The notes: generated from the sequence alone by a model not told the origin. 64,000 nucleotides of DNA from an uncultured Gammaproteobacteria bacterium (GCA_965231005.1 OZ246405.1:674709-738708), one strand, 5' to 3'; shown: positions 30,444 through 59,668, counted from the stretch's first letter. Numbers and translations are program-made.

Positions 30444-30453
30444 AAAGAGCATT

Positions 30454-31617: not shown

Positions 31618-31627
31618 GTATTATTTT

Positions 31628-34709: not shown

Positions 34710-34718
34710 CCTAAATAA

Positions 34719-36493: not shown

Positions 36494-36498
36494 ATTGT

Positions 36499-37650: not shown

Positions 37651-37651
37651 T

Positions 37652-38509: not shown

Positions 38510-38519
38510 AATAAGTAAT

Positions 38520-39560: not shown

Positions 39561-39566
39561 GCTCTT

Positions 39567-41357: not shown

Positions 41358-41395
41358 AACATTATTTTTATGATTATAAATGGTAGCATATTAAG

Positions 41396-41424
41396 TTGAC
41401 GAACAGGCAATCATGCGGTACAAT
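41396..41424 (+). promoter_or_regulatory. sigma70-like promoter TTGACG-N17-TACAAT
   Basis: TTGACG at 41396-41401, 17-nt spacer, TACAAT at 41419-41424. Lies in a 113-bp gap before 41471. Confidence 0.4.
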
Positions 41425-41470
41425 ATTTTGGTATTTATCGCTTAATAGAGCTATTTTAACTCAATGAAAC

Positions 41471-42997: not shown

Positions 42998-43001
42998 CTA
43001 T

Positions 43002-43730: not shown

Positions 43731-43768
43731 CAGATCTGTTATTATAAGTGGTTAATACAGTTAATATT

Positions 43769-44449: not shown

Positions 44450-44451
44450 CT

Positions 44452-45285: not shown

Positions 45286-45290
45286 TTACT

Positions 45291-46115: not shown

Positions 46116-46116
46116 T

Positions 46117-46890: not shown

Positions 46891-46900
46891 TATAAATACT

Positions 46901-47734
46901 ATGAAACAAGTTCATGATATGTTCAATCTCTCAGGTAAAGTTGCTGTTATTACAGGAGGTGCAGGACTGTTAGGAGTGAAACATGCAGAAGCAATTGCAG
47001 AATATGGTGGAATACCAGTGCTCTTTGACATCAATGAAACACAAGCAAAAGAACGAGCAAAAGAAATTGCTGAGAAATATCAAGTCCAAGCAATTGGTAT
47101 TGGTGGTGACATCACAGATAAACAAGATATTGAACGAGTACGTGATGAATTATTAAAAGAGTTTTCTCACATTGATATTCTCATCAATAATGCAGCAAAT
47201 GATCCAAAAGTAAAAGAAGAAGAAAACCAAATGCCTTGGTCACGATTTGAACAGTTTTCACGAGATGTATGGGATGGTGATATTGCCGTTGGATTGACTG
47301 GAGCATTTCTCTGTGCACAGATCTTTGGAAATGAAATGGCAAAACAGAAAAAGGGTGTGATTCTAAATATTGCCTCTGATTTAGGTGTGATAGCGCCAGA
47401 CCAACGAATTTACAGAAAAGAAAATACTGCTGATGATATGCAACCAGTAAAGCCAGTCACATACTCAGTTGTAAAACATGGACTTATTGGTTTAACAAAA
47501 TATTTAGCAACATATTGGGCAGACAATGGAATTCGGGTAAATGCTATTTCACCCGGGGGAGTGTATAATGGACAACCAGATGCATTTGTTGAAAAATTGG
47601 CACAATTGATCCCACTTGGGAGGATGGCAGATAAGGATGAGTATAAAGCAGCCATTATTTTCCTTGTTTCTGATGCATCAAGCTATATGACAGGTGCAAA
47701 TTTGAATATTGATGGAGGGCGCACTTGTTGGTAA
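46901..47734 (+). CDS. short-chain dehydrogenase/reductase
   Basis: 'VAVITGGAGLLGVKHA'; 'YSVVKHGLIGLTKY'. Confidence 0.75.
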   Translation: MKQVHDMFNLSGKVAVITGGAGLLGVKHAEAIAEYGGIPVLFDINETQAKERAKEIAEKYQVQAIGIGGDITDKQDIERVRDELLKEFSHIDILINNAANDPKVKEEENQMPWSRFEQFSRDVWDGDIAVGLTGAFLCAQIFGNEMAKQKKGVILNIASDLGVIAPDQRIYRKENTADDMQPVKPVTYSVVKHGLIGLTKYLATYWADNGIRVNAISPGGVYNGQPDAFVEKLAQLIPLGRMADKDEYKAAIIFLVSDASSYMTGANLNIDGGRTCW

Positions 47735-47766
47735 TATTAATTATATTTGAACCTTTTTGATACTTA

Positions 47767-47795
47767 TTGACACCTTTTGTAGTGGATGATACTAT
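47767..47795 (+). promoter_or_regulatory. sigma70-like promoter TTGACA-N17-TACTAT
   Basis: TTGACA at 47767-47772, 17-nt spacer, TACTAT at 47790-47795. Lies in a 100-bp gap before 47835. Confidence 0.4.
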
Positions 47796-47834
47796 ATTAA
47801 TTAGTAAATAAACTATCACAGAATATTAGATTTT

Positions 47835-48494
47835 ATGAGCAAAATTCACCCAATTCACGAGCATCTTTTAGACCGATACCCACATCTTGATCGATGTAAA
47901 GATGATATTTTAAATGCATTTCACCTTATCCTTGATTGCTTCAACAACGGAGGAAAACTTTTGGTAATGGGAAATGGTGGATCAAGTGCAGATGCAGAAC
48001 ACATTTGTGCTGAATTAACAAAAGGATGTGTGTTGCAAAGACAACTAAAAGAGAGTGAGCGAGATTTATTTGGAGGTGACGTCGGTATTCTTCCTCAAAT
48101 GTTGCAAAATGGTTTACCAGCATTTTCGCTTGGAGTGTCTCATTCACTCATTAGCGCGTTTATGAATGACGTCCACCCTGAATTTATTTTTGCACAACAG
48201 ATTTGGGTGCATGCAAAAGAAAACGATGTTGTATTGGCATTGTCTACCTCAGGAAATTCACGAAACGTTGTTGCAGGAATTCATACTGCAAAAGCAAGAA
48301 ATATTAAATCAATTGTACTTACTGGTGGAAATCAAAATAATAGATCATCACAATTAGCAGATGTTAGCATTTGTGTTCCAGAATATGAGGTGCATAAAAT
48401 TCAAGAGCTACATCTTCCAGTTTATCATTATTTATGTATGGCAATTGAACATGAGTTTTTTCATGAACATAAAGGATCACATTATCAACAATAA
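47835..48494 (+). CDS. SIS-domain sugar-phosphate isomerase (GmhA-like)
   Basis: 'LLVMGNGGSSADAEHICAEL' and 'VVLALSTSGNSRNVV'. Confidence 0.7.
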   Translation: MSKIHPIHEHLLDRYPHLDRCKDDILNAFHLILDCFNNGGKLLVMGNGGSSADAEHICAELTKGCVLQRQLKESERDLFGGDVGILPQMLQNGLPAFSLGVSHSLISAFMNDVHPEFIFAQQIWVHAKENDVVLALSTSGNSRNVVAGIHTAKARNIKSIVLTGGNQNNRSSQLADVSICVPEYEVHKIQELHLPVYHYLCMAIEHEFFHEHKGSHYQQ

Positions 48495-48519
48495 TTTTTT
48501 TATATTTTAATAAAAACAT

Positions 48520-49359
48520 ATGTCAGCATTTATCATCGCGGAAATAGGAATCAATCATAATGGAAGTTTAGATATTGCAAAGCAGCTTATTGATGGAGCA
48601 AAGCTTGCAGGTTGTGATGCAGTAAAGTTTCAAAAACGAACATTGGAAACAGTATATTCAAAAGAAGATTTAGATAGAGAAAGACAATCACCTTGGGGAA
48701 CAACAAATCGCGAGCAAAAACAAGGATTAGAATTTTCAATTGAGGATTACAAAGAAATTGATAAATACTGTAAAGAAAAAAAGATTGAATGGTTTTTTTC
48801 AGCTTGGGATGTACAAAGTCAAAAAGACATGAGAGTGTTTGATCTAAAATACAATAAAGTTGCATCTCCAATGTTAGGACATACTGAACTTCTTAAAGAA
48901 ATTGCTTCAGAAGGAAAACACACATTTATATCAACAGGCATGTCTTCGCTCGAGGAAATAGATAAGGCAGTTGAAATCTTCAAAAATGCAAACTGTCCAT
49001 TTGAACTTATGCATTGCAACAGTACATATCCTATGAAGAATGAAGATGCAAATCTTCGTGTGATGGACGTTTTGAAGGAACGGTATGGTTGCGATGTTGG
49101 GTATAGTGGTCATGAAGGTGGAAGGATTGTTTCTTTCATGGCATGCGTACTTGGTGCAACATCTCTTGAAAGACATATTACATTAAACAAAGCAATGTAT
49201 GGTTCAGATCAAGCAGCATCTATTTTGATTTACGATTTGTGTAAGTTGGTAAATGATGTTCGTGGTATTGATGCTATTATGGGTGACGGAAAAAAAGAGA
49301 TTCTTGAATCTGAAATGCCGGCAAGAAAAAAACTTCGTTATTACGAACAACAATCATAA
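48520..49359 (+). CDS. NeuB-family ulosonic acid (phosphate) synthase, short form without SAF domain
   Basis: 'FIIAEIGINHNGSLDIAKQLIDGAKLAGCDAVKFQKRT'. Only 279 aa (TIM barrel only). Confidence 0.7.
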   Translation: MSAFIIAEIGINHNGSLDIAKQLIDGAKLAGCDAVKFQKRTLETVYSKEDLDRERQSPWGTTNREQKQGLEFSIEDYKEIDKYCKEKKIEWFFSAWDVQSQKDMRVFDLKYNKVASPMLGHTELLKEIASEGKHTFISTGMSSLEEIDKAVEIFKNANCPFELMHCNSTYPMKNEDANLRVMDVLKERYGCDVGYSGHEGGRIVSFMACVLGATSLERHITLNKAMYGSDQAASILIYDLCKLVNDVRGIDAIMGDGKKEILESEMPARKKLRYYEQQS

Positions 49360-49367
49360 GTAGATAT

Positions 49368-49886
49368 ATGTCTCAAAAAGATATTGTAGAAAAATTAAAA
49401 TTGGTTCAGCTACTTGTTTTAGATTTTGATGGTGTTTTTACAGATGGCTGTGTGTATGTAAATCAAGATGGTGTTGAATCAGTAAAATGTAGCCGAAAGG
49501 ATGGTCTTGGTATTAATCTTTTACACAAGCATGGCCTTGAAGCATTCGTTATCTCAAAAGAAATAAATCCAGTTGTTGCAGCACGTTGCAAAAAATTAGG
49601 GATTCCATGTGTTCAGGGAGTCCACGATAGTGATGGTAAACTAGAAATATTAAAACGAATATTAGATGAAAAGGGTCTTTCTTCAGATCAAATTGCGTAT
49701 ATGGGTGACGATATTAATGACTATGCGTGCATTGAATATGCTGGAGTAGGAATCACAACAAAGGATGGACATGAGTCGCTGCGAGAAATTGCATTATATA
49801 CTACAAATGCGTGTGGAGGAGATCATGCAGTGCGCGAAGTTTGTGAGAAAATATTAAAAGCCAAGGGTATCGTATTGGAATTTTAA
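49368..49886 (+). CDS. HAD-family ulosonate-phosphate phosphatase (KdsC/YrbI-like)
   Basis: 'LLVLDFDGVFTDGCVYV', 'YMGDDINDYAC', 'GGDHAVREVCEKIL' are KdsC-type blocks. Confidence 0.75.
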   Translation: MSQKDIVEKLKLVQLLVLDFDGVFTDGCVYVNQDGVESVKCSRKDGLGINLLHKHGLEAFVISKEINPVVAARCKKLGIPCVQGVHDSDGKLEILKRILDEKGLSSDQIAYMGDDINDYACIEYAGVGITTKDGHESLREIALYTTNACGGDHAVREVCEKILKAKGIVLEF

Positions 49887-49958
49887 TTTTCGTTCTGCGG
49901 TGTAAATAATGCTGCTCATTTTCTTAGATGGAGGATAGGAGGACTGATTGTAATCTTT

Positions 49959-51203
49959 ATGAAGAAGCAAAAGATTTTCTTTATTCCAACATATATAGGT
50001 CCGATTAAACACTACGAGCGTTTGATTCCTTATCTTCAAGATACATATGATGTTGAATTTTTGATTGTACGTCCAGAGAGTTCTCAACGGAAGGAATCCG
50101 TGGAATATTGCAAAGAAAAAAAATACACATACCATATTATTGACAAAGGAATTACAAGAGATATTGGTATTCGAATCCCCTTTTTCACACCGATTAAAAA
50201 GAGATACGAACATGCTATAGCTTGTCGTAATTTTTTAAAAACACATGAGGCCGCAAAAATTATTTCCCACAAGTCATCATCTCCATATGACTCTCTTTTT
50301 AGAGAGGCAAATAGACTTGGAATAGAAACGATTGTGCTTCAATGGTCATCGGCTGCGAGTATAATAGAACAAGACAAGCGTGTAAATTCTTTCGTTCAGA
50401 AGACGTACTTGTTCTTTTTAAAGGTAATTTTTGCTTTACTGGATCTTTTTTACAAAGAATCTCGTTTTGGATATAAAACAGCCATTCCTAAAAAAATTGG
50501 GGTTTTCGACAAAATAAAAAAAGAGTATTATATCGGAGAAGGGTTTGATCCCAAAATCATAGATATTGTTGGGTCTATTGATTTTCAATTATTGTATGAA
50601 TTAAGAAAAAGAATAGACACAGATTCACGTTTGAGAGAGTCATTGCTCGAAAAATATGGACTTTCTAAAAATAAGATTAATATTGTCGTCATTCTGTATC
50701 GTTTTTATATGGCGCCAGACAAAAAATACAAGATGACAATTGATGAGCATGTCTCACATTATTATGATTTGTTTAAGAGTATCCGAGAAGTTTTTTCGGA
50801 GGAGGAAGCAAACGTTTTGCTGAAGATGCATCCAACAGAAAATAGAATGCCCGAGCTGTATCATTCGTATAAAGAGCTTGGTGTACAATTATTTTATGGT
50901 GATGCAAAAACAGATGAGCTTGTATGTTTGTCTGATCTCTATATTTCTGAGCCTGCATCAAGTGTAAACTATATGGTACTCGGAAGTAATACACCATCAA
51001 TTTTTGTTAATCTTTCCGAATTTGAATTTCTCAATAATCGAGCACAATATTTTAACATTACCCATATAGCAACTAGTCGAGAAGGATTTATCAGAAAATT
51101 AAAAGAGTTTAAGAATGGAACACTTGAAAGACAATACAACACAGACGATATTGAACTAAGATCCATTGATAAGACAGTATCTTTTATCAAAAAGAATATA
51201 TGA
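49959..51203 (+). CDS. GT-B-fold TagF/KpsC-like transferase; paralogue 4 of 4 (putative)
   Basis: 'NIVVILYRFYMAPDKK' resembles the TagF 'ILYAPT' block. Similar size and context. Confidence 0.3.
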   Translation: MKKQKIFFIPTYIGPIKHYERLIPYLQDTYDVEFLIVRPESSQRKESVEYCKEKKYTYHIIDKGITRDIGIRIPFFTPIKKRYEHAIACRNFLKTHEAAKIISHKSSSPYDSLFREANRLGIETIVLQWSSAASIIEQDKRVNSFVQKTYLFFLKVIFALLDLFYKESRFGYKTAIPKKIGVFDKIKKEYYIGEGFDPKIIDIVGSIDFQLLYELRKRIDTDSRLRESLLEKYGLSKNKINIVVILYRFYMAPDKKYKMTIDEHVSHYYDLFKSIREVFSEEEANVLLKMHPTENRMPELYHSYKELGVQLFYGDAKTDELVCLSDLYISEPASSVNYMVLGSNTPSIFVNLSEFEFLNNRAQYFNITHIATSREGFIRKLKEFKNGTLERQYNTDDIELRSIDKTVSFIKKNI

Positions 51204-51892
51204 ATATCATGGCAGTTATTCCCGCAAGGAGTGGTTCAAAGGGAGTAAAGGACAAAAATATAAGAAAAATTCTTGGAAAAGAATTGCTTGGATATGCAAT
51301 TGATTTTGCAAAAAAACTCGAGGTTGATTCTATCTTTTGTTCAACTGATTCGCCTGTGTATGCAGATATAGCAAAGAGTCATGGTGCAGATGTACCTTTT
51401 TTGCGTTCAAAAGAAGCTGCAAGAGACACAGCAATGGAACAAGATATTCTTGAAGATTTATATAACAAATTTGATGAACACAGTATTGCGTATCCAGATT
51501 TATTTGTTTGGCTCCGTCCTACATTTTTGTTTAGAGATATTGCTGCAGTAAAGGAGTGTATCAAAAAAATGGTTGATGATCCTTCTTTAACAGCATGCAG
51601 AGTTGTTACAGAGACAGAATCTCGTTTATATACTGGTGATAATGGAATGCTCAAACCAGATTTTAATGATAATGGAGCATCGATGGCAAGACGACAAGAT
51701 GTTCCGACAAAGTATAAGGTGTATAACACAGATGTATTTCGGGGGAATCCAAAAAATTGTGGTCCAAATTTTTTAGGAAATGCTGTCGGATATGTTGTCG
51801 CAGGGAAATTATCTGGGATTGATATTGATGATGAAACTGATTTTTTAATTGCATCTCATTTATTAAAAGGATTAGGTCATGAGTATTTGTAA
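51200..51892 (+). CDS. acylneuraminate cytidylyltransferase family (CMP-ulosonic acid synthetase), copy 4
   Basis: 'MAVIPARSGSKGVKDKNIRKILGKELLGYAI'. ATGA overlap. Confidence 0.75.
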   Translation: MNIMAVIPARSGSKGVKDKNIRKILGKELLGYAIDFAKKLEVDSIFCSTDSPVYADIAKSHGADVPFLRSKEAARDTAMEQDILEDLYNKFDEHSIAYPDLFVWLRPTFLFRDIAAVKECIKKMVDDPSLTACRVVTETESRLYTGDNGMLKPDFNDNGASMARRQDVPTKYKVYNTDVFRGNPKNCGPNFLGNAVGYVVAGKLSGIDIDDETDFLIASHLLKGLGHEYL

Positions 51893-52553
51893 AGATATAC
51901 AACAAAAGATAGAAGCCCAGTTGGAAAATATTTTGTCACTTCGCGCAGATAGAGATCTTAAAGATGACAAAAGTTTTGTAACAAAAGGTGACTTACTGTG
52001 CCAAGATATTATTGTTGAACATATACAGTCTCTTGAAACACCTTTTGAAATAATTTCTGAAGAGATTGATCTTGGGACATTTGCATACGACAAAGAAAAA
52101 AACTATGTTATAGTAGATCCTATTGATGGAACAGAGAATTTCACTTCTGGATTGCGAGAGTGGGGGATTTCAATAGCTATTTATGAAAAAGGAACACATG
52201 TAGAATCAATGCTTGGTTTACCAGAGCTTAATGTATGGCTTCATACTGGTGATACTATTCAAAAGTACGAATCTCGGATTTTAGGACTTTCTTCGTCTCT
52301 TTCAAAAGACGATATGAATAATATCCCAAGGGGGCCAGAGTACAGAATAATTGGCTGTTGCGTTTATAACGTGTATAATGCTATAACCGGTTCTTTTGCC
52401 TCATTTGAGAATGTAAAAGGGGCGAATACATGGGATATTCTTGCAGGGTGTAATCTTGCTCTGGAGCATGGGAGAAAGGTGACTGTAGATGGAAAACCCT
52501 ATGCAGGAGAATTTCTTTCACCAAACAAAAAATATTTATTTAAGATAGGATAA
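51879..52553 (+). CDS. inositol-monophosphatase-family (IMPase/SuhB/CysQ) sugar-phosphate phosphatase
   Basis: 'IISEEID', 'VIVDPIDGTENF', 'TWDILAGCNLALEHG' (WDxAAG). Confidence 0.65.
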   Translation: MSICKDIQQKIEAQLENILSLRADRDLKDDKSFVTKGDLLCQDIIVEHIQSLETPFEIISEEIDLGTFAYDKEKNYVIVDPIDGTENFTSGLREWGISIAIYEKGTHVESMLGLPELNVWLHTGDTIQKYESRILGLSSSLSKDDMNNIPRGPEYRIIGCCVYNVYNAITGSFASFENVKGANTWDILAGCNLALEHGRKVTVDGKPYAGEFLSPNKKYLFKIG

Positions 52554-52561
52554 TAACCAAT

Positions 52562-53413
52562 ATGGAAGATAAAGTTATTATTGTTGCAGAGATAACAACA
52601 AATCATTTGGGGGACATAGAGAGACTCAAAAAAATGGTTCGTCTTTCAAAAGAAGCAGGCGCAGATTTGGTAAAAATACAAAGACGAACTGTTGAAACAT
52701 TTTATCCACCAGGACAGTTGGATAAGCCATATGATTCTCCATTTGGAAGTACGTATAGAGATTTTAGACATGGACTAGAACTTTCTATGGAAGATATGCA
52801 TGCGTTTGACCAAGAATGCAAACGGTTAGATATTGATTGGTTTTCTACGATTTTAGATTTTGAATCTTATGAATTGTTAGAACCATTTCAAAAACGCATA
52901 TTAAAAATTCCATCAACCATTTCTAAACATACAGCATTTCATAAAAAGATTGCTGAAAAACACAAAGGTCCTATTGTTGTTTCTACTGGATTTACTGATC
53001 AAGCATATGAAGATTATGTCATGGAAACATTTAAAGATAATGAAAAGATTTATCTACTTCAGACTACATCAGCATATCCAACTCCACCAGAAGATTGTCT
53101 TATTTCAGTGATAAGACATTATAGTAAGCTTAGTGAAAAGAATCCAAAAATTGTTCCAGGATATTCGGGTCATGATATCGGATCACTTGGATTTATGCTT
53201 GCTGTTGCAGCTGGTGCAAAAATGATTGAAAAGCATGTAAAGCTTGGTGATACTGAATGGATGCATTTCCAAGATGTTGCTGTTGATTTGGAAAATGGAG
53301 ATTTTGCAAAGTTTGTTCAAGACGTGCGTAAAGCTGAAAAAATGTGTGGAAGCGAAAAAAAGGAAATCAAATCTACAGAACATCATAAGTATGATTATAT
53401 TCCAGAAGTTTAA
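52562..53413 (+). CDS. NeuB-family ulosonic acid (phosphate) synthase, short form without SAF domain, copy 4
   Basis: 'IIVAEITTNHLGDIERLKKMVRLSKEAGADLVKIQRRT'. Only 283 aa. Confidence 0.65.
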   Translation: MEDKVIIVAEITTNHLGDIERLKKMVRLSKEAGADLVKIQRRTVETFYPPGQLDKPYDSPFGSTYRDFRHGLELSMEDMHAFDQECKRLDIDWFSTILDFESYELLEPFQKRILKIPSTISKHTAFHKKIAEKHKGPIVVSTGFTDQAYEDYVMETFKDNEKIYLLQTTSAYPTPPEDCLISVIRHYSKLSEKNPKIVPGYSGHDIGSLGFMLAVAAGAKMIEKHVKLGDTEWMHFQDVAVDLENGDFAKFVQDVRKAEKMCGSEKKEIKSTEHHKYDYIPEV

Positions 53414-53431
53414 TGTTGCTTGACAAAAATA

Positions 53432-53459
53432 AAATCCAGCATATGCTGGGTTTTTTGTT
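53432..53459 (+). terminator. rho-independent terminator ending the 53-kb + strand array
   Basis: AAAAUCCAGCAU/AUGCUGGGUUUUUU: palindrome CCAGCATATGCTGG followed by T6. Lies 19 nt after the stop at 53413. Confidence 0.55.
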
Positions 53460-53471
53460 TATATAGGTTGT

Positions 53472-53510
53472 GGACCAGCTCGCTTCGACAATGTCGGGCG
53501 AGCTGGTCCT
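53472..53510. repeat. GC-rich perfect 12-bp-stem hairpin at the low-GC/high-GC junction
   Basis: GGACCAGCTCGC-N15-GCGAGCTGGTCC. The loop contains CGACA.TGTCG. Sits 10 nt 3' of the minus-strand stop at 53520. No flanking U-tract on either strand. Confidence 0.5.
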
Positions 53511-53519
53511 GGTTGCTGA

Positions 53520-54458
53520 TTAGAGCAGGGTTTTCTTGGTCTTGTTTTGGTTTGCCATCTTCACTACGCCTTCCCACGTGGACTGGTCCGTGAGTGTGAA
53601 CGCGATCAAGAATCCTGGGAGTGAGAGAACTTTTCCGATTGTGAGCGGTTCGTTGTAGATGATTACACCGAGCATTGTTGCAGCACCGATGTACACGCTC
53701 CACATCACCAGTTTTTTTGCCGCAATTGAACTACCGTCTTTGTAGCTAAGGAGCTTGAACGGAATCATCACGACCACAACAAGGCTAATCAGGATGGCCG
53801 CTGTCCAAAAGCCTGTTGACAGTGAGCCAACGTATGCCCAGCCTCCGAGGACGCTGAGGGACAGTACGCAGCAGAGTATTGTTGAAGATCCGACCCAAAA
53901 GTTATTCACAAAAGGATCGGCCTTTCTAATCTTGCGCGTAATTGCCTCGTTGAGTACTGCGAAGAAGGGGAGACTGATTGCCAGCCAAACCCAGGTTGAG
54001 AGGTTCAGAAATTCTGCGAGCGATGGAAAGTTCAGTATTGCATATCCTGCAATCAGGAAGACTGCAATCCCACACCACTGACGGATTCTCAATTTGTCTC
54101 CAAAGAAAATCCAGTCAACAAAAGCGCCAGGAATAATGGACATCCCACCGATGAATGTGACAACACCGATGTCTGCCCCTTCGTACGTGAATGTCATGAA
54201 GCTGATGACTGTCATGATTGTGGCAACAGCACCAAAGGCCATTGAGCCAGCAATCTGAGTCGCCGGAGCGCGAAGCTGCTTTTTTCTGACAGAAGAACCA
54301 ACAACGCCGCTGAGCATCTGTATGATTCCAATGACAAGTGTTGCTAAAAATGTACCAGGAAGGTTTTTTGAAGCTACTCCAATTATCTTGATGAGCAACT
54401 TGCTGATGGTCTTGGAAATACCTTCGCCAACTGCCCACTTGATCCACGAGTTGTTCAT
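53520..54458 (-). CDS. multi-pass membrane protein (possible DMT/EamA-like transporter), in GC-rich island
   Basis: 312 aa with about 10 hydrophobic segments. GC-rich codon usage unlike the rest of the window. Confidence 0.45.
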   Translation of the reverse strand: MNNSWIKWAVGEGISKTISKLLIKIIGVASKNLPGTFLATLVIGIIQMLSGVVGSSVRKKQLRAPATQIAGSMAFGAVATIMTVISFMTFTYEGADIGVVTFIGGMSIIPGAFVDWIFFGDKLRIRQWCGIAVFLIAGYAILNFPSLAEFLNLSTWVWLAISLPFFAVLNEAITRKIRKADPFVNNFWVGSSTILCCVLSLSVLGGWAYVGSLSTGFWTAAILISLVVVVMIPFKLLSYKDGSSIAAKKLVMWSVYIGAATMLGVIIYNEPLTIGKVLSLPGFLIAFTLTDQSTWEGVVKMANQNKTKKTLL

Positions 54459-54602
54459 AGGATCCTCCGTGCTTTAGCATCCAAAATGGAAATGCTCTTC
54501 ATAATTTTCCATGGTTGAAAAACTATGAAGACAAGGCTACCGGCAGCACACAAGTGTGTACCGGTAGCCTGTTGCTGCAAGCAGCAGTCCTCCTTGGGGC
54601 CG

Positions 54603-55610
54603 TCAGTCAGCCTTCATCTCCTCGAGCAGTCGGCGGGCCACGGCCATGGGAGCGCCACCATCGCGGCCGTCCCAGTCGCGCACCTGCTCCAGGCACTTGA
54701 TCGCCTTGGCGCGCATACCCTTCTGGTCGAGGGCGCCGGCCTTCAGCAGCAGGCAGGTGAGAAGGGTGTTGGCGATCGAGCTCGACTTGGTGTCACCGAA
54801 CTCGGCAAGACCAGCGTCGGCCTGTTCGATCACACCGTTCCAGTCGTCGGCCTTCATAAGCGGGATGAGTTTGCCAACGCTCGACCAGTGGTTGTCCACG
54901 TGGAGCATGTAGGCCTCGTCCACATCCTTGCCGTCGTAGTCATCTCCGCCGGCGAGCATGTTGGCCCACAGGTTGTGCAGCGAGGCATTGCCCTTCATCC
55001 AGCCGGTGTAGCCGCCGTGCAGCGCTTGGATCTGCCGGCAGACGCCGAGCTGGTGTTCGAAGGCAGCCAGGATCTGGTCGTGGTCGTCCGTCACCAGCGC
55101 AGCAGTCGTACGTTCGACAGCAGCGATGTACATGGCAGTCATCACCTTCTCGGCAGCACCACCTGCCTGCGTCGCGTACAGCGCACTCATCTCCTGCGCA
55201 TGCGCAGCACCCAGGTAGTTGCGCTGACCGCGCCGGATCAGGCCGATGTTGTACCAGACCAGGCTGATGGCCAGGAGCTGCTTGGGCGTGACATCGAGCT
55301 CGTCGTGCATGCGGCTCAGGAGGCCGCTGAGGTCTTCCATTGCCTGCGTCAGATCGATGTCCGGATCGCGGCGCGCTGCACTGATCTGCTTTTCGATGCA
55401 GACCAGCTCGAGCGCAGTGTTGCCAGCGAGGCCGAACTGCACGCGCGCGTAGGCGTAGCTCTTCGCGACCTTGTCCGGATCCTTCATGAGCAGATCGTAG
55501 AGGCCAGAGGTTCGCTCGTCCAGGAAGTCAGGCTGCTCTGTGCCCATGGTGAAAAGCTGCTGACCGAGATCTTCTGCGGTCTGCGTGGTATCAAGTTGCG
55601 GCGTCGTCAT
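54603..55610 (-). CDS. hypothetical cytoplasmic protein in GC-rich island
   Basis: Balanced, protein-like composition. The overlapping + strand ORF is V/L/R/H-rich antisense. Strong RBS GGGGGT 5 nt before the ATG at 55610; the track start at 55700 is GTG in AT-rich DNA. Confidence 0.45.
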   Translation of the reverse strand: MTTPQLDTTQTAEDLGQQLFTMGTEQPDFLDERTSGLYDLLMKDPDKVAKSYAYARVQFGLAGNTALELVCIEKQISAARRDPDIDLTQAMEDLSGLLSRMHDELDVTPKQLLAISLVWYNIGLIRRGQRNYLGAAHAQEMSALYATQAGGAAEKVMTAMYIAAVERTTAALVTDDHDQILAAFEHQLGVCRQIQALHGGYTGWMKGNASLHNLWANMLAGGDDYDGKDVDEAYMLHVDNHWSSVGKLIPLMKADDWNGVIEQADAGLAEFGDTKSSSIANTLLTCLLLKAGALDQKGMRAKAIKCLEQVRDWDGRDGGAPMAVARRLLEEMKAD

Positions 55611-55897
55611 GACTACCCCCTTGTTTTTTTGCTGAGGCATACCCGTATACAGCCTTTTTTGAAATGAACAGACAGCATGCGGGAATCTGTCTCCTGACAC
55701 TAATTCGTCAGTTGGGTATACTACAATACTTTTTTCCTTTTGTCAATATTACTATTTTGTGTATTTTTAGCCAAAAAAATGGCTTTTTTACCCTTTTTTT
55801 CAGAATATCAGCCAAATAGGAGATTTTTATTAATTTTTCCTCATATTCTTTTTTTGAAATAAGATGTTTTTTTGTTCATTTTTACTTTAAATTTACC

Positions 55898-55953: not shown

Positions 55954-57336
55954 ATGAATATTCTCTATATTGGAGGGGGATTTGTTGGAGCATGCTCAGC
56001 TGCAGTTTCTGCAAACAGTGGTCATAAGACCCTTGTTTTTGATATTGATGAAAATAAGGTTAGGATGCTTGGTTCAGAAGATAGAGATACTATTGAATCT
56101 TGTTTATTTGAAAAAGGACTCGGGGACTTACTTGTACGGCATAAAGAGCATGTTCGTTTTACACATGATTACAAAGAGGTCATAGCATTTCTCGAAGAGT
56201 GTGATGCCGTGTTCATGTGTTTACCAACTCCAGAAATTGATGAAACAGGAGAGAGCGATCTTTCATATTACACAAGTGCAGCCGAGCAATTAGCAGAAGC
56301 GTTAGTCAAAAGAAACAATAGTGCACAAGAAAAGTATGTTGTTATTGTAAATAAGAGTACTGTCCCAATTGAAATGGTTGATCAAACAAAACACATTATG
56401 GACAACGTTGGTGTGGAAAATTATGGTGTTGTCTCAAATCCAGAATTTCTTGTTGAAGGAAAAGCTGTTGAAGGGTCACTAAAACCAGATCGTATTGTTG
56501 TTGGTGCAGAATCAGAAAAAGATTTCGAAGTTATGCGTCGTGTGTATCAACGTTTTTATGAAGCACCAGATGTAAAATATCTTGAAGTATCTCAACGAGA
56601 AGCAGCAGCTGGAAAATTACTTGCAAATTTTTATCTGTTCAATAAATTAATGATTTGTTTTGATATTATTGGAAGAACATGTGAGGCATTTGATGATATT
56701 AAGTTTGAACAAGTCAGAAATATTCTTGTATCAGACAAAAGAATTGGAAAGTGGGGATTTTATGATTCTATCTATGCTGGTGGAAGTTGTCTCATCAAAG
56801 ATGCGCGTTCACTTTCACATCAATTACAGACAGCAGGACAGAGTGCAAATTTAGTGAATGAAGTATATCTTGCAAATAAAAGACAACTAGAATTATTTAT
56901 GAGTCGTGCAGAAACACAGGCCGCGTTTGATTGGTCTGAAAAAAAAGTTGCACTTCTTGGAACTGCATTTAAGCGAGATACAAATGATATCCGAAATACT
57001 CCAAGTATTCACATTGTAGATTTCTTACTTGAAAAACAAGTCTCTGAAATTCGTGCATATGATCCGGCAGCTCTGCCTTGGTTTAAAAAACACTTTTCTG
57101 CTGTTGATATCATTCAATATCCTGTCAACGAAGTAGAGGCTGTTGAAAATGCTGATGTCGTGATTATTGCAACAGACTGGCCTCAGTTTAGAGGAATTGC
57201 AGATATTCTTATTGAAAAAGATAGAGACGTTCTTATTTTAGATGGACGTCGCATGTTACAACATCGATATGATGATTTGCAAAAGAATGGATTTAGTATC
57301 ATCGCTGTCGGGAGTCCATTTTTAAAAGGAAAATAA
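55954..57336 (+). CDS. nucleotide-sugar 6-dehydrogenase (UDP-glucose/GDP-mannose dehydrogenase family)
   Basis: 'MNILYIGGGFVGACSA', catalytic 'IYAGGSCLIKDARSL', 'LGTAFKRDTNDIRNTPSI'. Confidence 0.8.
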   Translation: MNILYIGGGFVGACSAAVSANSGHKTLVFDIDENKVRMLGSEDRDTIESCLFEKGLGDLLVRHKEHVRFTHDYKEVIAFLEECDAVFMCLPTPEIDETGESDLSYYTSAAEQLAEALVKRNNSAQEKYVVIVNKSTVPIEMVDQTKHIMDNVGVENYGVVSNPEFLVEGKAVEGSLKPDRIVVGAESEKDFEVMRRVYQRFYEAPDVKYLEVSQREAAAGKLLANFYLFNKLMICFDIIGRTCEAFDDIKFEQVRNILVSDKRIGKWGFYDSIYAGGSCLIKDARSLSHQLQTAGQSANLVNEVYLANKRQLELFMSRAETQAAFDWSEKKVALLGTAFKRDTNDIRNTPSIHIVDFLLEKQVSEIRAYDPAALPWFKKHFSAVDIIQYPVNEVEAVENADVVIIATDWPQFRGIADILIEKDRDVLILDGRRMLQHRYDDLQKNGFSIIAVGSPFLKGK

Positions 57337-57337
57337 T

Positions 57338-58639
57338 ATGCAGGAAAATGATCAGCAAAAAGAAAAAATCGTTGTTGTTGGGCTTGGATATGTTGGTCTT
57401 CCGCTTGCTGTTCTTCTTGCTAAGCATTTTTCACTTGTAGGTTTTGATATCAATGAAAAGCGCATCAAAGAATTGCAGTCTGGAATTGATCACACCAGAG
57501 AGGTAAGTTCAGAAGAATTAAAAAGCTCAAGTATTAATTTTTCTTCCAACCCAGAAGTTATCAAAGATGCTTCATTTGTGATTGTTGCTGTACCAACACC
57601 AGTGGACTCAAACAGAGTCCCAGATTTAACGATTCTCGAAAAAGCTACAGAGACTGTCGGAAATCATATTTCAAAAGGTGCTGTTGTTGTGTATGAGTCG
57701 ACTGTGTATCCCGGCGCAACAGAAGAGGTCTGCATTCCCATTTTAGAGCAAACATCTGGACTTTCTGCGGGAATAGATTTTAAAGTTGGATATTCTCCTG
57801 AGCGAGTAAATCCAGGCGATAAAAAACATACAATTGATAAAGTAACAAAAGTTGTTTCTGGAATGGATGGCGAGTCTTTAGAACGCATCGACAATGTCTA
57901 TGGTTCAATTACAAATACATATAGAGCCACTTCAATTAAAGTTGCTGAGGCTGCTAAAGTTATTGAGAATACACAACGCGATTTAAATATTGCACTTATG
58001 AATGAATTAGCAATTCTTTTTCATAAGATTGGCATAAGTGTGTATGATGTTCTAGATGCTGCAGGAACAAAGTGGAATTTTCTTCCATTTAAGCCAGGAC
58101 TTGTTGGTGGGCATTGTATTGGAGTAGATCCATATTATCTTACATATAAAGCACAATCAGTTGGTCATAATCCAGAAGTTATTTTGGCAGGAAGAGGAAT
58201 CAATGATAGTATGCATAAGTTCCTTGCTCATCAAGTAGTGAAGGAAGTAAATCAATTATATAAAGAAAAAGAATTGAGTGAACTTCAAGTTGTAATATTA
58301 GGACTAACATTTAAAGAAAATATTTCAGATATTCGAAATTCAAAAGTTGCAGGATTATATAAAGAGTTAAAAGATTTTGGTTTATCACCAGTAGTATATG
58401 ATCCAATGGCTGACCATGAGGAAGTACAGAAGGAATATGATATTGTATTGACGAAAAAAGAAGAACTTCCAAAGGCAGATGTTCTTATTGTTGCAGTAGC
58501 CCATGATGAATTTGTCCGTTTGTCAGCAGATCAAATCAAGAATATGATGAACGGACAGCGTCTGCTATTGTTTGATATCAAGCATTTATACGATAGACAA
58601 AAAATTGAAGAAAAGGGTATACTGTATTGGACACTATAG
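57338..58639 (+). CDS. nucleotide-sugar dehydrogenase (UDP-ManNAc/UDP-GlcNAc 6-dehydrogenase-like, WecC/TviB-type)
   Basis: 'KIVVVGLGYVGLPLAV', catalytic 'GGHCIGVDPYYL', 'LGLTFKENISDIRNSKV'. Confidence 0.8.
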   Translation: MQENDQQKEKIVVVGLGYVGLPLAVLLAKHFSLVGFDINEKRIKELQSGIDHTREVSSEELKSSSINFSSNPEVIKDASFVIVAVPTPVDSNRVPDLTILEKATETVGNHISKGAVVVYESTVYPGATEEVCIPILEQTSGLSAGIDFKVGYSPERVNPGDKKHTIDKVTKVVSGMDGESLERIDNVYGSITNTYRATSIKVAEAAKVIENTQRDLNIALMNELAILFHKIGISVYDVLDAAGTKWNFLPFKPGLVGGHCIGVDPYYLTYKAQSVGHNPEVILAGRGINDSMHKFLAHQVVKEVNQLYKEKELSELQVVILGLTFKENISDIRNSKVAGLYKELKDFGLSPVVYDPMADHEEVQKEYDIVLTKKEELPKADVLIVAVAHDEFVRLSADQIKNMMNGQRLLLFDIKHLYDRQKIEEKGILYWTL

Positions 58640-58656
58640 AAAAAGCTAAAAAGCCT

Positions 58657-58690
58657 TAAAGGCTAAAAAGGCTGAGTTTGGCAGCCTTTT
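58657..58690 (+). terminator. intrinsic terminator embedded in a GCCTT/AAGGC palindrome-rich spacer
   Basis: Stem GGCTG (58670-74), loop AGTTTGG, stem CAGCC (58682-86), then TTTT. Flanked by AGCCTTAAAGGCT and GCCTTTAAGGC palindromes. Confidence 0.45.
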
Positions 58691-58756
58691 GGGCCTTTAC
58701 GGCGTTTAAAGCCTATTAAGCCTTTAAGGCATTTATAGCATTTTAAGCTTTTTATT

Positions 58757-59668
58757 ATGTCACATTATCTCGTTACTGGTGGAGCAGGATTCATCGGCAC
58801 AAATATTATCAAACAATTACTTGAGCAAGGACATCAAGTGCGTGTTATTGATAATTATAGTGGGGGGAAAAAGGAAGAAAGGATGCAGCCAGGTGTTGAA
58901 TATCTTGAGGGAGATATTCGAAATATGGATGATTTAAAAAAAGCAATGGAGGGTATTGACGGTGTGTTTCATACTGCTGCAATTCCTCGCATGCCATACT
59001 CAGTAGAACATCCTCAAGAAACAAATGAAAACAATGCAACAGGAACGTTGAATGTCCTTGTTGCTGCACGTGATGCAGGTGTAAAGCGACTTGTATATAG
59101 TGCTTCATCATCAGCCTATGGGGATCAACCTGTTATGCCTCTTGTAGAAACCATGAAAACACAACCACTTAGTCCATATGGTTTGCAAAAGTACATTGGT
59201 GAAGAATATTGTCGACTATTTTCAGAATTATACAATTTTGAAACAGTTTCTCTGCGTTACTTCAATGTGTATGGTCCATATATGGATCCAGAAGGAGCAT
59301 ATGCCTTGGTGATTGGAAAATTTTTGAAGCAAAAAAAAGCTGGAGAACCAATGACTGTCTGTGGTGACGGAGAATATTACAGAGATTATACAAACGTGTT
59401 TGATATTGCTCGTGCAAATCTTTTAGCAATGACATCTGAAAAGGCGGGGAATGGTGAAGTGATAAATGTAGGAAATGGTTCACCACATTCAGTAAATCAA
59501 CTTGTAGAACTAATTGGCGGTGATTTTATAAATATCGATGCCAGAGCAGGGGATCCACGACGTACTGAAGCTGATAATAGAAAAGCGAAAGAATTTCTTG
59601 GGTGGGAACCGACTATTTCATTGAAAGAAGGAATTGATATGTTGAAAAAAGAGTGGGGAGTGGATTAG
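58757..59668 (+). CDS. NAD-dependent nucleotide-sugar epimerase/dehydratase (GalE/WbpP/TviC-like)
   Basis: 'YLVTGGAGFIGTNII'. The 'YxxxK' equivalent sits in 'PYGLQKYIGEEY'. Confidence 0.75.
   Translation: MSHYLVTGGAGFIGTNIIKQLLEQGHQVRVIDNYSGGKKEERMQPGVEYLEGDIRNMDDLKKAMEGIDGVFHTAAIPRMPYSVEHPQETNENNATGTLNVLVAARDAGVKRLVYSASSSAYGDQPVMPLVETMKTQPLSPYGLQKYIGEEYCRLFSELYNFETVSLRYFNVYGPYMDPEGAYALVIGKFLKQKKAGEPMTVCGDGEYYRDYTNVFDIARANLLAMTSEKAGNGEVINVGNGSPHSVNQLVELIGGDFINIDARAGDPRRTEADNRKAKEFLGWEPTISLKEGIDMLKKEWGVD

What the first reader, a model, noticed from the sequence alone, without database searches (positions are those of the whole stretch)
53460..55700. Abrupt GC-rich island (about 50-65% GC) inside roughly 33% GC DNA, carrying two minus-strand genes
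Base composition and codon usage change sharply about 50 bp after the end of the + strand glycan array. The first gene (membrane protein, 53520..54458) is intermediate in GC; the second (54603..55610) is strongly GC-rich. Composition then falls back to AT-rich before the next gene at 55954. Spurious + strand ORFs in the island (e.g. 54525..55667) are typical antisense artefacts of GC-rich coding DNA. This looks like horizontally acquired DNA from a high-GC donor or a metagenome assembly chimera. No integrase, transposase, tRNA or obvious direct repeats flank it. The left edge is marked by a perfect 12-bp GC hairpin; see the separate finding at 53472..53510.
Basis: seen in the sequence. Interest (0 to 1): 0.6.

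Follow-up and report, generated by a model that had tools for sequence, protein, structure and literature searches.

The report
GC-rich transporter–TPR gene pair island
A real 2.3-kb GC-rich insert in an AT-rich bacterial sugar-coat gene cluster carries a nucleotide-sugar-type transporter and an uncharacterised helical-repeat protein, and that protein's gene is GC-rich in several other unrelated AT-rich genomes too, which a single gene transfer does not explain.

Summary
Background GC is 0.30-0.39. Gene A (53520..54458, minus strand) is 0.48 GC and gene B (54603..55610, minus strand) is 0.63. GC3 is 0.56 for A and 0.81 for B, against 0.24±0.03 for 55 other genes.

It is not an assembly chimera. 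A second assembly from another run reproduces both AT/GC junctions, with one SNP. A 1.23-Mb NCBI contig carries the identical sequence.

A has a 10-TM DMT fold, and its best structural matches are CMP-sialic-acid and nucleotide-sugar transporters. B is a confidently modelled TPR-like solenoid. Its family is rare, with about 30 clusters among 1.84 billion representatives, and has no Pfam or NCBIfam model.

B sits beside a DMT-type permease and NeuB or CMP-synthetase genes in at least four other metagenomic lineages. The pair is therefore an accessory module of ulosonic-acid glycan loci, not random cargo.

The main surprise is that distant B homologues (25-33% identity) are also gene-limited GC spikes. 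Their GC3 is 0.75-0.93 over backgrounds of 0.30-0.51 in five other loci. Two further loci are near-native.

My best reading is that the B→A unit was acquired laterally from a roughly 50% GC relative in which B was already a spike. Why B stays GC-rich across lineages is unresolved. The two candidates are an unsampled high-GC reservoir and a gene-specific GC-maintaining force.

The parts
53431..53454 (.). AT-flanked bidirectional terminator hairpin (CCAGCATATGCTGG core). It is shared by the + strand NeuB-family gene that ends at 53413 and the minus-strand unit. It has native AT-rich composition and lies just outside the GC block.
   Evidence: The terminator scan finds it on both strands. Palindrome I2 covers it.
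53472..53509 (-). Perfect 12-bp GC hairpin with a 14-nt loop, 10 nt downstream of A's stop codon. It is probably A's terminator or mRNA-stabilising stem, and it marks the left edge of the GC block.
   Evidence: Inverted repeat I9 is 100% complementary. The GC step occurs here.
53520..54458 (-). Gene A, 312 aa. It is a 10-TM DMT-fold transporter. GC is 0.48 and GC3 is 0.556.
   Evidence: ORF listed. No Pfam hit, and only a weak SMR match. It has 16 homologues, 6 of which carry EamA PF00892. AF2 gives pLDDT 90.5. Foldseek top hits are the mouse CMP-sialic acid transporter 6xbo/6oh3 (E about 4e-7), Vrg4, YddG and LicB (TM 0.73). GC3.
54459..54602 (-). B-A spacer, 144 nt. It holds a GC hairpin (54535..54569) followed by a T-rich run, an AT hairpin (54496..54531), and then the GGAGG ribosome-binding site of A.
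   Evidence: Sequence. RNA fold of the region downstream of B gives -52.6 kcal/mol. Inverted repeat I5.
54603..55610 (-). Gene B, 335 aa. It is a TPR-like all-alpha solenoid of an uncharacterised rare family. GC is 0.628 and GC3 is 0.810.
   Evidence: ORF listed. No Pfam or NCBIfam hit. The family has 30 representatives. Conserved residues are R80 R81 Y120 R127 Y132 Q139 W204 N208 H212 W242 S276-278 N281 D317-G319. AF2 gives pLDDT 95.4. Only weak TPR, MalT-domain-III and Rap fold matches were found. TPR Pfam hits are below threshold in several members.
55611..55711 (-). Probable 5' leader of B, about 100 nt at 0.44-0.46 GC. It contains a hairpin at 55670..55692 and the AAGGGGG ribosome-binding site.
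   Evidence: Sequence and GC steps. No Rfam family matches it.
55718..55746 (-). Sigma-70-like promoter of B (TTGACA-17-TAGTAT) in native AT-rich DNA.
   Evidence: Promoter scan scores 10 of 12. Similar promoters lie 100-170 nt upstream of B homologues.
54525..55667 (+). 380-aa antisense ORF. It is a by-product of B lacking TTA, CTA and TCA codons, and it is not a gene. The NCBI genome nevertheless annotates it.
   Evidence: Its GC1/GC2/GC3 of 0.77/0.41/0.66 mirrors B's positions 3/2/1. The in-register antisense frame is open in the window, L008 and L009 but has 2 stops in L007 and L012. The exact sequence is on record from the 1.23-Mb NCBI contig.

Best explanation
The island is real chromosomal DNA. 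It is one B→A unit on the strand opposite to the surrounding + strand glycan arrays, built as promoter, structured leader, B, hairpins, A, hairpin.

Shown:
- A is a DMT-fold membrane transporter whose nearest solved structures are CMP-sialic-acid and other nucleotide-sugar transporters.
- B is a cytoplasmic TPR-like solenoid with polar residues (Arg, Tyr, His, Asn, Trp, Ser) conserved along its whole length.
- B recurs beside a DMT-type permease in glycan loci that encode NeuB-family synthases and/or CMP-sugar synthetases.

Inferred function: A moves a nonulosonic or ulosonic-acid-related substrate (CMP-sugar, free acid or a precursor) across the membrane. B acts as its ligand-binding partner or regulator.

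Inferred history in this genome: the two genes arrived together by lateral transfer from a relative of about 48-52% GC. In that donor A had native composition (GC3 about 0.55) and B was already a GC spike. Loci L010 and L013 show such states. This accounts for the two-step GC profile.

Unresolved: B's extreme GC is a trait of the gene family rather than of this event. I lean slightly towards repeated lateral replacement of B alleles from a GC-rich reservoir that has not been sampled. The alternative is a gene-specific force that keeps B GC-rich in place.
For: The island is real. Both junctions are reproduced in an independent assembly, and the sequence is present in a 1.23-Mb NCBI contig.

Fold assignments. 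A: AF2 pLDDT 90.5, with 37 Foldseek hits at E<=1e-3 that are all DMT transporters, led by the CMP-sialic acid transporter. B: AF2 pLDDT 95.4, all-alpha solenoid.

Synteny.
- Window: NeuB | A←B.
- L007 and L009: B | EamA-type permease, NeuB, 2-hydroxyacid dehydrogenase and further genes.
- L011: CMP-synthetase, B, EamA-type permease.
- L013: B→A-type permease in the same order and with similar spacing as the window. A is 42% identical and B is 30% identical.
- The A homologue in Saccharibacteria MAG L003 also lies among NeuC-like and CMP-synthetase genes.

Foreign composition in the window. GC3 is 0.81 and 0.56 against 0.24. delta* is 0.214 for B. CpG rho is 1.02 against 0.61.

A's behaviour elsewhere. 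A-type permeases have native GC in L003 (GC3 0.38 against about 0.35) and L013 (0.48 against 0.48). A's excess in the window therefore points to transfer rather than to a family trait. A's GC is flat along the gene, with no gradient towards B.

B moves independently of its neighbours. L009_B matches L011_B at 170 bits but L007_B at only 44 bits. The adjacent permeases show the reverse, with L007-L009 at 223 bits and L009-L011 at 43 bits.

Orientation. B lies against the local gene array in exactly the three well-flanked loci where it is most GC-rich (window, L007, L009). It is co-directional where it is modest or native (L010, L011, L013). This fits recent insertion.

Codon positions. B's values of 0.67/0.41/0.81 sit close to the Muto-Osawa/Lawrence-Ochman regression lines for a genome of about 65% GC, with no GC3 lag. 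The regression is recalled from memory and was not computed here.
Against: No donor was found. Nothing above 33% identity to B exists among about 15 billion proteins. The L007 homologue P0045 is also alone in its 90% identity cluster. B has no relative in plasmids, phages or IMG/VR.

None of the ten B loci with DNA lies in a background that is demonstrably about 65% GC or higher. The highest is L015, whose short partial flanking ORFs have GC3 of 0.50 and 0.72.

Five AT-rich lineages carry deeply divergent B alleles that are all GC-rich. Each has a native AT-rich sigma-70 promoter about 100-170 nt upstream. Independent recent imports do not easily explain this.

There are no mobility genes, tRNA or direct repeats at the window's island. 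No empty-site relative was available. The functions of A and B are inferred from fold and neighbourhood only.
Confidence: 0.5

Rival explanations
1. B, and to a lesser degree A, are long-term residents. A gene-specific force holds B's coding sequence at about 63-69% GC inside 34-43% GC genomes. Candidates are hyper-local GC-biased gene conversion at a recombination-prone edge of the glycan locus, or selection on codon usage or mRNA, for example to uncouple B's translation from the A/U-ending-codon pool.
For: The GC spike is limited to the leader, coding sequence and terminator in the window, L007, L008, L009 and L012. The promoters upstream are AT-rich and native-looking.

The GC-rich state occurs on at least four or five deep branches of the family tree. 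No high-GC donor has been sampled.

GC1 and GC2 are raised as well, so the amino-acid composition has shifted. That needs a long time under GC pressure. B evolves faster than its neighbours: 27% identity against 41-60% between L007 and L009. Fast evolution combined with a GC bias is what gBGC hotspots produce.

gBGC has been proposed for bacteria, where recombining genes have higher GC3 (PMC4450053).
Against: The required effect, +0.5 to +0.6 in GC3 on a single gene with sharp edges, is large. I know of no bacterial precedent of that size, and I did not retrieve effect sizes from PMC4450053.

There is no spill-over into the adjacent permease in L009, and A's GC in the window is flat rather than graded. 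B is native or near-native in L013 and L011. A-type permeases are native elsewhere, so A's excess here still needs a transfer.

The window's B mRNA is no more structured than synonymous-codon shuffles (z=-0.7). B lacks the host's CpG depletion.
Confidence: 0.3
2. One reading: a single recent import of arbitrary DNA directly from a high-GC donor, with cargo unrelated to the glycan array.
For: Codon usage and dinucleotide signature are strongly foreign. The genes lie on the opposite strand within a 55-of-58 co-oriented gene array.
Against: The two genes differ by 0.25 in GC3, so a single high-GC donor does not fit A.

The pair recurs with ulosonic-acid genes in other lineages. The GC spike recurs in distant homologues. 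No high-GC relative exists in the databases.
Confidence: 0.1
3. Metagenome assembly chimera, with reads of a GC-rich organism joined into an AT-rich contig.
For: The contig is a MEGAHIT metagenome assembly. The second assembly breaks inside B at 55297/55319.
Against: Both AT/GC junctions are identical in a second assembly from another run that differs by one SNP. The 380-aa ORF spanning all of B is on record from a 1.23-Mb NCBI contig.

A chimera would need two precise joins, placing a native promoter and ribosome-binding site in front of B and a shared terminator behind A. The same architecture appears in five other datasets.
Confidence: 0.02
4. The + strand 380-aa ORF is the real gene, or the region codes on both strands. 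This is how the NCBI record annotates it.
For: It is the longest ORF in the island and it is annotated in the NCBI genome.
Against: The minus-strand product has a 30-member family and an AF2 model at pLDDT 95. The GC1/2/3 pattern fits the minus frame. The antisense frame is interrupted by 2-10 stops in L007, L012, L010, L011 and L013.
Confidence: 0.02

Closest known systems
Compositionally deviant, laterally exchanged genes inside surface-polysaccharide loci (O-antigen and capsule locus mosaics; genomic islands in general)
   Same: Codon usage deviates sharply over a gene-limited stretch inside a large glycan locus. The cargo is functionally tied to the locus. The gene tree of B is incongruent with that of its neighbour.
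   Different: There is no integrase, tRNA or repeats here. From general knowledge, classical polysaccharide-locus imports are usually AT-richer than the genome, whereas this one is far GC-richer. The same gene family is the outlier in several unrelated genomes.
DMT superfamily transporters: SLC35 nucleotide-sugar transporters (CMP-sialic acid transporter, Vrg4), bacterial EamA/YddG, and LicB
   Same: A's model has the 10-TM DMT fold. Its top Foldseek E-values are to the CMP-sialic acid transporter, and its best TM-score is to LicB (0.73/0.81). It lies next to NeuB and CMP-synthetase genes.
   Different: Sequence identity is 8-16%. A itself has no above-threshold EamA hit. A profile search against PDB sequences finds only SMR at E about 0.2. 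Substrate and direction of transport are unknown. Bacteria are not known, to my knowledge, to need a CMP-sialic acid transporter.
TPR-like ligand-sensing solenoids (MalT domain III; Rap and other RRNPP receptors)
   Same: The fold is an all-alpha repeat solenoid of similar size. Best TM-scores are 0.56 to MalT domain III (1hz4) and 0.54 to phage phi3T Rap. Polar residues are conserved along the solenoid.
   Different: All Foldseek E-values are above 1e-3. No TPR Pfam model reaches its threshold. No DNA-binding or output domain is present, and no peptide gene is evident.
GC-rich loci in AT-rich genomes linked to frequent gene conversion, such as Borrelia vls (recalled from memory); bacterial gBGC (PMC4450053)
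   Same: A local GC excess in an AT-rich genome, affecting a fast-evolving gene at a variable surface-related locus.
   Different: B is a single-copy cytoplasmic protein gene in the 64-kb window, with no silent cassettes nearby. No recombination data are available. The effect needed is much larger than what I know of for bacterial gBGC.

Membership tests
Assembly chimera | Junctions are not reproducible in independent assemblies or reads | tested here: not met
   L004 matches window 53300..55297 with one SNP. L006 matches 55319 onward exactly. The NCBI 1.23-Mb contig carries the exact ORF spanning B. Read mapping was not possible.
Horizontally acquired genomic island | Deviant base composition and codon usage relative to the host | tested here: met
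   GC3 is 0.81 and 0.56 against 0.237±0.028. delta* is 0.214 against 0.071±0.025.
Horizontally acquired genomic island | Mobility hallmarks: integrase or transposase, tRNA target, flanking direct repeats | tested here: not met
   No tRNA in the window. The genes called within ±10 kb, with their listed Pfam hits, are all glycan or housekeeping genes. No boundary direct repeats. The only bracket is a 15-nt inverted TTGACAAAA... motif, which doubles as a -35 box.
Horizontally acquired genomic island | Absent from close relatives (empty site), or an identifiable donor lineage | not testable with these tools
   Clusters of the flanking genes contain only this strain. The nearest B relative is 33% identical.
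Horizontally acquired genomic island | Gene phylogeny incongruent with neighbouring genes | tested here: met
   This was tested for the B family, not for the window itself. L009_B is closer to L011_B (170 bits) than to L007_B (44 bits). The adjacent permeases show the reverse, 223 against 43 bits.
DMT / EamA transporter superfamily (gene A) | 10-TM fold built from two 5-TM repeats | tested here: met
   AF2 pLDDT 90.5. The 37 Foldseek hits at E<=1e-3 are all DMT transporters.
DMT / EamA transporter superfamily (gene A) | Pfam EamA (PF00892) match above the gathering threshold | tested here: not met
   A itself has no Pfam hit. Six of its 16 homologues carry a precomputed PF00892 annotation.
CMP-sialic acid / nucleotide-sugar transporter (gene A) | Transport of a CMP-sugar; nucleotide- and sugar-binding residues | not tested
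   The only evidence is fold rank (6xbo, 6oh3, 6oh2 on top) and the NeuB/CMP-synthetase neighbourhood. Binding residues were not compared.
TPR repeat proteins (gene B) | Helix-turn-helix repeat solenoid | tested here: met
   The AF2 model has 19 helices at pLDDT 95.4. All top Foldseek matches are TPR or TPR-like proteins, though weak (E>=4e-3).
TPR repeat proteins (gene B) | Sequence match to TPR Pfam models above threshold | tested here: not met
   The best match is TPR_2 at E=0.017 and 15.7 bits against a cutoff of 27. Only 6 of 27 members give sub-threshold hits.
Integron gene cassette | attC site with RYYYAAC/GTTRRRY cores and a nearby IntI integrase | tested here: not met
   By reading the sequence, the hairpins after B and A lack GTTRRRY cores. 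No integrase is listed among the genes called within ±10 kb.
Anti-phage defence or phage gene | Match to PADLOC or PHROG models, or presence on viral contigs | tested here: not met
   No PADLOC hit. Only E>0.01 PHROG noise. No relatives in IMG/VR, phage or plasmid collections.

The most novel reading that the evidence does not exclude
B-family genes are not recent imports. They are kept at about 62-69% GC (GC3 0.75-0.93) inside genomes of about 34-49% GC by a gene-specific process, which would make them a heritable compositional island limited to one transcription unit. The process could be an extreme, hyper-local GC-biased gene conversion hotspot at the edge of variable glycan loci. It could also be selection for a G/C-ending codon set that uncouples B's translation from the rest of the proteome. 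One homologue, in L008, sits next to a tRNA-Arg(GCG).
Probability: 0.3. Interest if true: 0.8.

Novelty: new variant of a known kind. Interest (0 to 1): 0.6.

Why it matters
First, it shows that a sharp GC spike in a metagenomic contig can be real and reproducible. It also exposes a probable annotation error, because the public genome calls the antisense ORF instead of B.

Second, it defines an uncharacterised two-gene module that travels with nonulosonic and ulosonic-acid pathways in uncultivated, mostly AT-rich bacteria. The module is a TPR-like solenoid plus a DMT transporter that resembles CMP-sialic-acid transporters. A bacterial transporter for activated or free ulosonic acids would bear on how these cells build or scavenge their surface glycans.

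Third, the same gene family is the GC outlier in several unrelated genomes, with no donor in about 15 billion proteins. Standard amelioration logic does not explain this. It is either evidence for a hidden high-GC reservoir that repeatedly replaces one gene, or a natural test case for gene-specific GC-maintaining forces in bacteria such as gBGC or codon-set selection.

Tried and rejected
- Chimera: rejected on independent assemblies.
- Antisense or dual coding: rejected. The antisense frame is not conserved as an open frame and the codon-position GC fits the minus strand.
- Selection for mRNA structure: the window's B is not more stable than synonymous-codon shuffles (z=-0.7). L007 and L012 are mildly so (about -2) and only L009 is strongly so (-8.6). 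The first attempt timed out.
- Conserved leader RNA or riboswitch: L007 and L009 share a structured leader with 3 compensatory pairs. A covariance model built from it finds nothing in the window or other loci. Rfam has no match.
- Phage, plasmid or defence origin: no hits.
- Terminal inverted repeats: a 15-nt inverted TTGACAAAARKAAAA motif brackets the island. The 9-mer core occurs at chance frequency in the window (4 found, 3.1 expected), and the right copy is B's -35 box. I treat it as ambiguous.
- Amino-acid composition (GARP/FYMINK ratio) as a proxy for the GC of family members without DNA: it did not track GC3, so I abandoned it.
- Profile search of the 5.8-billion-protein set with the family alignment: it returned only 2 proteins because of the word index.
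- Metagenome locus scan with the full alignment: it failed for lack of a conserved stretch. A 6-sequence alignment gave 2 loci.
- Host taxonomy and sample origin: not established. Cluster look-ups carried no organism names, and paper searches on the accession numbers found nothing. Only A's homologues point to Saccharibacteria/Patescibacteria. Because A may be foreign, that does not identify the host.
Full report
OBSERVATION

The composition step is real and large. In 200-bp windows, GC goes from 0.36 at 53300-53499 to 0.46-0.51 over 53400-54500. It then reaches 0.60-0.67 over 54500-55600 and drops to 0.24 by 55700-55899. Every other 1-kb window of the 64-kb sequence lies between 0.295 and 0.390.

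The shift sits mainly at synonymous sites. GC3 of 55 other genes is 0.237±0.028 (maximum 0.327). Gene A (53520..54458, minus strand) has 0.556 and gene B (54603..55610, minus strand) has 0.810. GC2 rises only from 0.33 to about 0.41.

The hairpin at 53472..53509 is a perfect 12-bp stem lying 10 nt after A's stop codon. No tRNA is present. The genes called within 10 kb on either side, as listed with their Pfam hits, are glycan or housekeeping genes.

The + strand ORF 54525..55667 is the in-register antisense frame of B. It is open only because B uses no TTA, CTA or TCA codons.

NOT A CHIMERA

The window belongs to a 128,873-bp MEGAHIT contig of ENA ERZ930065 / ERR2281800. An assembly of a different run (ERZ930061 / ERR2281801) yields two contigs that cover the region:
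- L004 is identical to window 53300..55297 apart from one A/C difference, which gives K7T in A.
- L006 is identical from 55319 onward.

Both AT/GC junctions are therefore reproduced independently. That assembly simply breaks inside B. In addition, A, both flanking genes and the exact 380-aa antisense ORF spanning all of B are on record from a 1,232,850-bp NCBI contig. That record evidently annotates the wrong strand.

ANATOMY

On the minus strand, a sigma-70-like promoter (TTGACA-17-TAGTAT, 55746..55718) lies in native AT-rich DNA. The elements that follow it are, in order:
- a leader of about 100 nt at 0.44-0.46 GC, with a hairpin at 55670..55692 and an AAGGGGG ribosome-binding site;
- the B coding sequence;
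- a 144-nt spacer with a strong GC hairpin (54535..54569) plus a T-rich run, an AT hairpin, and a GGAGG site;
- the A coding sequence;
- the 12-bp GC hairpin;
- the AT-flanked bidirectional terminator shared with the upstream + strand NeuB-family gene.

The GC-rich block is therefore one transcription-unit-sized piece.

THE PROTEINS

Neither protein matches Pfam or NCBIfam at threshold.

A has 16 homologues at 34-50% identity. Some are annotated EamA/DMT, and they include a Candidatus Saccharibacteria MAG and a Patescibacteria protein. Its AF2 model (pLDDT 90.5) is a 10-TM DMT fold. All 37 Foldseek hits at E<=1e-3 are DMT transporters. They are led by the mouse CMP-sialic-acid transporter (6xbo, 6oh3, 6oh2; E about 4e-7), followed by Vrg4, maize CST, SLC35B1, YddG and LicB (TM 0.73/0.81).

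B has no relative in the word-indexed 5.8-billion-protein set other than itself. An exhaustive phmmer scan of 1.84 billion representatives finds 30 proteins of about 330 aa at no more than 34% identity. Polar residues are conserved along the whole length: R80 R81, Y120, R127, Y132, Q139, W204, N208, H212, W242, S276-278, N281 and D317-G319. AF2 gives a very confident all-alpha solenoid (pLDDT 95.4, pTM 0.92). Matches to solved structures are only weak TPR-type ones, with the best TM-scores to MalT domain III (0.56) and a phage Rap receptor (0.54). TPR Pfam hits stay below threshold. There is no defence, phage or plasmid connection.

CONSERVED NEIGHBOURHOOD

The window's island sits between two + strand blocks of a glycan locus.
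- The left block encodes SDRs, a SIS isomerase, two NeuB-family synthases, a HAD phosphatase and two CMP-sugar synthetases.
- The right block encodes two UDP-sugar dehydrogenases and an epimerase.

B homologues elsewhere are in similar company:

| Locus | Source | Arrangement |
|---|---|---|
| L007 | NCBI MAG contig | B, then EamA-type permease, NeuB, 2-hydroxyacid dehydrogenase, NeuC-like epimerase, NeuB, CMP-synthetase |
| L009 | JGI | B, then permease, NeuB, dehydrogenase |
| L011 | Logan | CMP-synthetase, B, EamA-type permease |
| L013 | Logan | B→A-type permease, same order and spacing as the window (A 42%, B 30% identity) |
| L010 | JGI | B at the end of a GDP-sugar glycan array, with no adjacent permease |

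The A homologue in the Saccharibacteria MAG L003 lies among NeuC-like and CMP-synthetase genes.

Two unrelated-looking DMT permease families fill the partner slot. The A-type occurs in the window, L003 and L013. The EamA-type occurs in L007, L009 and L011. The island's cargo is thus a recurrent accessory module of ulosonic-acid glycan loci.

My inference is that A transports a pathway-related substrate and that B is its ligand-binding partner or regulator. Neither function has been shown.

THE UNEXPECTED PART

B homologues at only 25-33% identity are themselves GC spikes.

| Locus | GC3 of B | GC3 of local genes |
|---|---|---|
| Window | 0.81 | 0.24 |
| L007 | 0.89 | about 0.33 |
| L009 | 0.85 | about 0.30 |
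| L012 | 0.86 | 0.33 |
| L008 | 0.93 | upstream DNA is 0.32-0.44 GC |
| L010 | 0.75 | about 0.51 |
| L014 | 0.67 | contig too short to judge |
| L015 | 0.68 | two short partial ORFs at 0.50 and 0.72 |
| L011 | 0.43 | about 0.31 |
| L013 | 0.47 | 0.48 |

In each AT-rich case the spike covers the leader, coding sequence and terminator. It is preceded by an AT-rich sigma-70-type promoter. On a neighbour-joining tree the GC-rich alleles fall on at least four or five deep branches, interleaved with native ones. Their third positions are C 0.45-0.53, G 0.34-0.40, A 0.03-0.08 and T 0.04-0.14. In the window, B's dinucleotide signature is far from the host's (delta* 0.214 against 0.071±0.025), and it lacks the host's CpG depletion (rho 1.02 against 0.61). 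A is within the host's range on both measures (delta* 0.092; CpG 0.78).

HISTORY IN THIS GENOME

A-type permeases have native composition in L003 and L013. A's flat GC of 0.48 and GC3 of 0.56 in a genome with GC3 of 0.24 is therefore best read as import from a relative of about 50% GC. B comes with A in the same B→A arrangement as in L013. L010 shows that B can be a spike over a mid-GC background.

One en-bloc transfer from such a donor explains the two-step profile. It also explains the placement on the strand opposite to an array in which 55 of 58 large ORFs are on the + strand.

B is mobile relative to its neighbours on longer time scales. L009_B is much closer to L011_B (170 bits) than to L007_B (44 bits). 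The adjacent permeases group L007 with L009 (223 bits) and away from L011 (43 bits). L007 and L009 even share a homologous structured leader upstream of their very different B genes.

WHY B IS GC-RICH EVERYWHERE

This is not settled, and I see two explanations.

(i) Repeated replacement from a high-GC reservoir. In support:
- B's codon-position GC values fit a genome of about 65-72% GC at equilibrium. The regression is recalled from memory.
- The B tree is incongruent with the tree of the neighbouring permeases.
- The most GC-rich alleles lie against the local gene orientation.

Against it:
- No such reservoir is seen among ten loci or about 15 billion proteins.
- Each allele has a native promoter.

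(ii) A gene-specific maintaining force, either hyper-local gBGC or selection on the codon set. In support:
- The pattern recurs across lineages.
- The spikes have transcript-limited edges.
- GC1 and GC2 are raised as well.
- B evolves fast.
- No donor has been found.

Against it:
- The size of the effect is very large.
- The edges are sharp and do not spill into neighbouring genes.
- Native alleles exist in L011 and L013.
- CpG is not depleted in B.

Selection for mRNA structure is not general. The z-score against synonymous shuffles is -0.7 for the window's B, although it is -8.6 in L009.

I put about 0.5 on the lateral-cassette account as stated. I put 0.3 on in-place maintenance, 0.1 on a one-off high-GC import of unrelated cargo, and about 0.02 each on a chimera and on the antisense ORF being the real gene.

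COMPARISON WITH KNOWN SYSTEMS

As an island, it has the compositional hallmark and the phylogenetic incongruence but none of the mobility hallmarks. A meets the fold criterion of the DMT superfamily but not the Pfam EamA threshold. Its substrate is untested, so it works like a nucleotide-sugar or metabolite transporter but cannot be filed as a CMP-sialic-acid transporter. B has a TPR-like fold but fails the sequence-model thresholds, and it belongs to an undescribed family.

VERDICT

The finding is real and is not an artefact. The HGT reading is partly right. The recurrent, family-specific GC spike and the uncharacterised B/DMT module make it moderately interesting (0.6). I class it as a new variant of a known kind.

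LIMITS

The host's taxonomy and the sample's origin were not established. The function of both proteins rests on fold and neighbourhood alone. DNA was available for only 10 of about 30 family clusters.

Noticed in passing
window 54525..55667 (+): The 1.23-Mb NCBI genome that contains this region has the 380-aa antisense ORF on record (P0060) and none of the three tested minus-strand B variants (335, 365 and 314 aa). This looks like a strand mis-annotation caused by the GC-rich sequence.
   Followed up: yes
window 55297..55319: The independent ERR2281801 assembly ends one contig at 55297 and starts the next at 55319, inside B. Several Logan contigs carrying B homologues are also only 1.2-1.8 kb long. 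Assemblies seem to fragment at these GC spikes, perhaps from a coverage drop or strain variation.
   Followed up: partly
L007 1411..1507 and L009 699..790: A homologous structured leader lies upstream of B. It is 79% identical and forms a long-range stem of 17-19 pairs with 3 compensatory changes, ending just before the ribosome-binding site. The downstream B proteins are only 27% identical. A covariance model built from the two finds it nowhere else, and Rfam has no match. It may be a new cis-regulatory RNA, or a recombination anchor for swapping B.
   Followed up: partly
L009 824..1795: This B mRNA is far more stable than synonymous-codon shuffles (MFE -552 against -471±9 kcal/mol, z=-8.6). 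The window's B is not (z=-0.7). Many imperfect GC-rich inverted repeats lie inside the gene.
   Followed up: partly
L008 307..380 (-): A tRNA-Arg with anticodon GCG lies 225 nt upstream of, and divergent from, the most GC-rich B homologue (GC3 0.93). It could be an integration landmark, or a tRNA matched to CGC/CGU codons.
   Followed up: no
window 53420..53434 (+) and 55732..55746 (-): An inverted 15-nt motif, TTGACAAAA(A/G)(T/G)AAAA, brackets the island 2,297 nt apart. The right copy is the -35 box of B's promoter. The left copy overlaps the NeuB terminator and reads as an inward-facing promoter-like site (TTGACA-16-TATGCT). The 9-mer core occurs at chance frequency in the window.
   Followed up: partly
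window, L007, L009 versus L010, L011, L013: B lies on the strand opposite to the neighbouring gene array in the three well-flanked loci where it is extremely GC-rich (GC3 0.81-0.89). It is co-directional in the three where it is modest or native (0.75, 0.43, 0.47).
   Followed up: no
L003 11011..12069 and L010 11060..11629: Other genes next to A or B homologues are also GC-elevated. A 352-aa protein in L003 has GC3 0.52 against about 0.35. A 189-aa protein in L010 has 0.67 against about 0.51. Glycan-locus edges in these organisms seem to be compositionally mosaic.
   Followed up: no
window 54437-54439 (codon 7 of gene A): The two sequencing runs differ by a single A/C SNP in 2 kb of shared island sequence. 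It is non-synonymous in A (K7T). No difference occurs in the 700 bp of B that both cover.
   Followed up: yes
window 53..53413 and 55954..59668: About 50 consecutive + strand glycan-biosynthesis genes run over 53 kb with positive GC skew throughout. They include two NeuB paralogues (35% identical), a SIS isomerase, a HAD phosphatase and two CMP-synthetases. This suggests two separate ulosonic or nonulosonic-acid pathways. The host genome is CpG-depleted (rho 0.61).
   Followed up: partly
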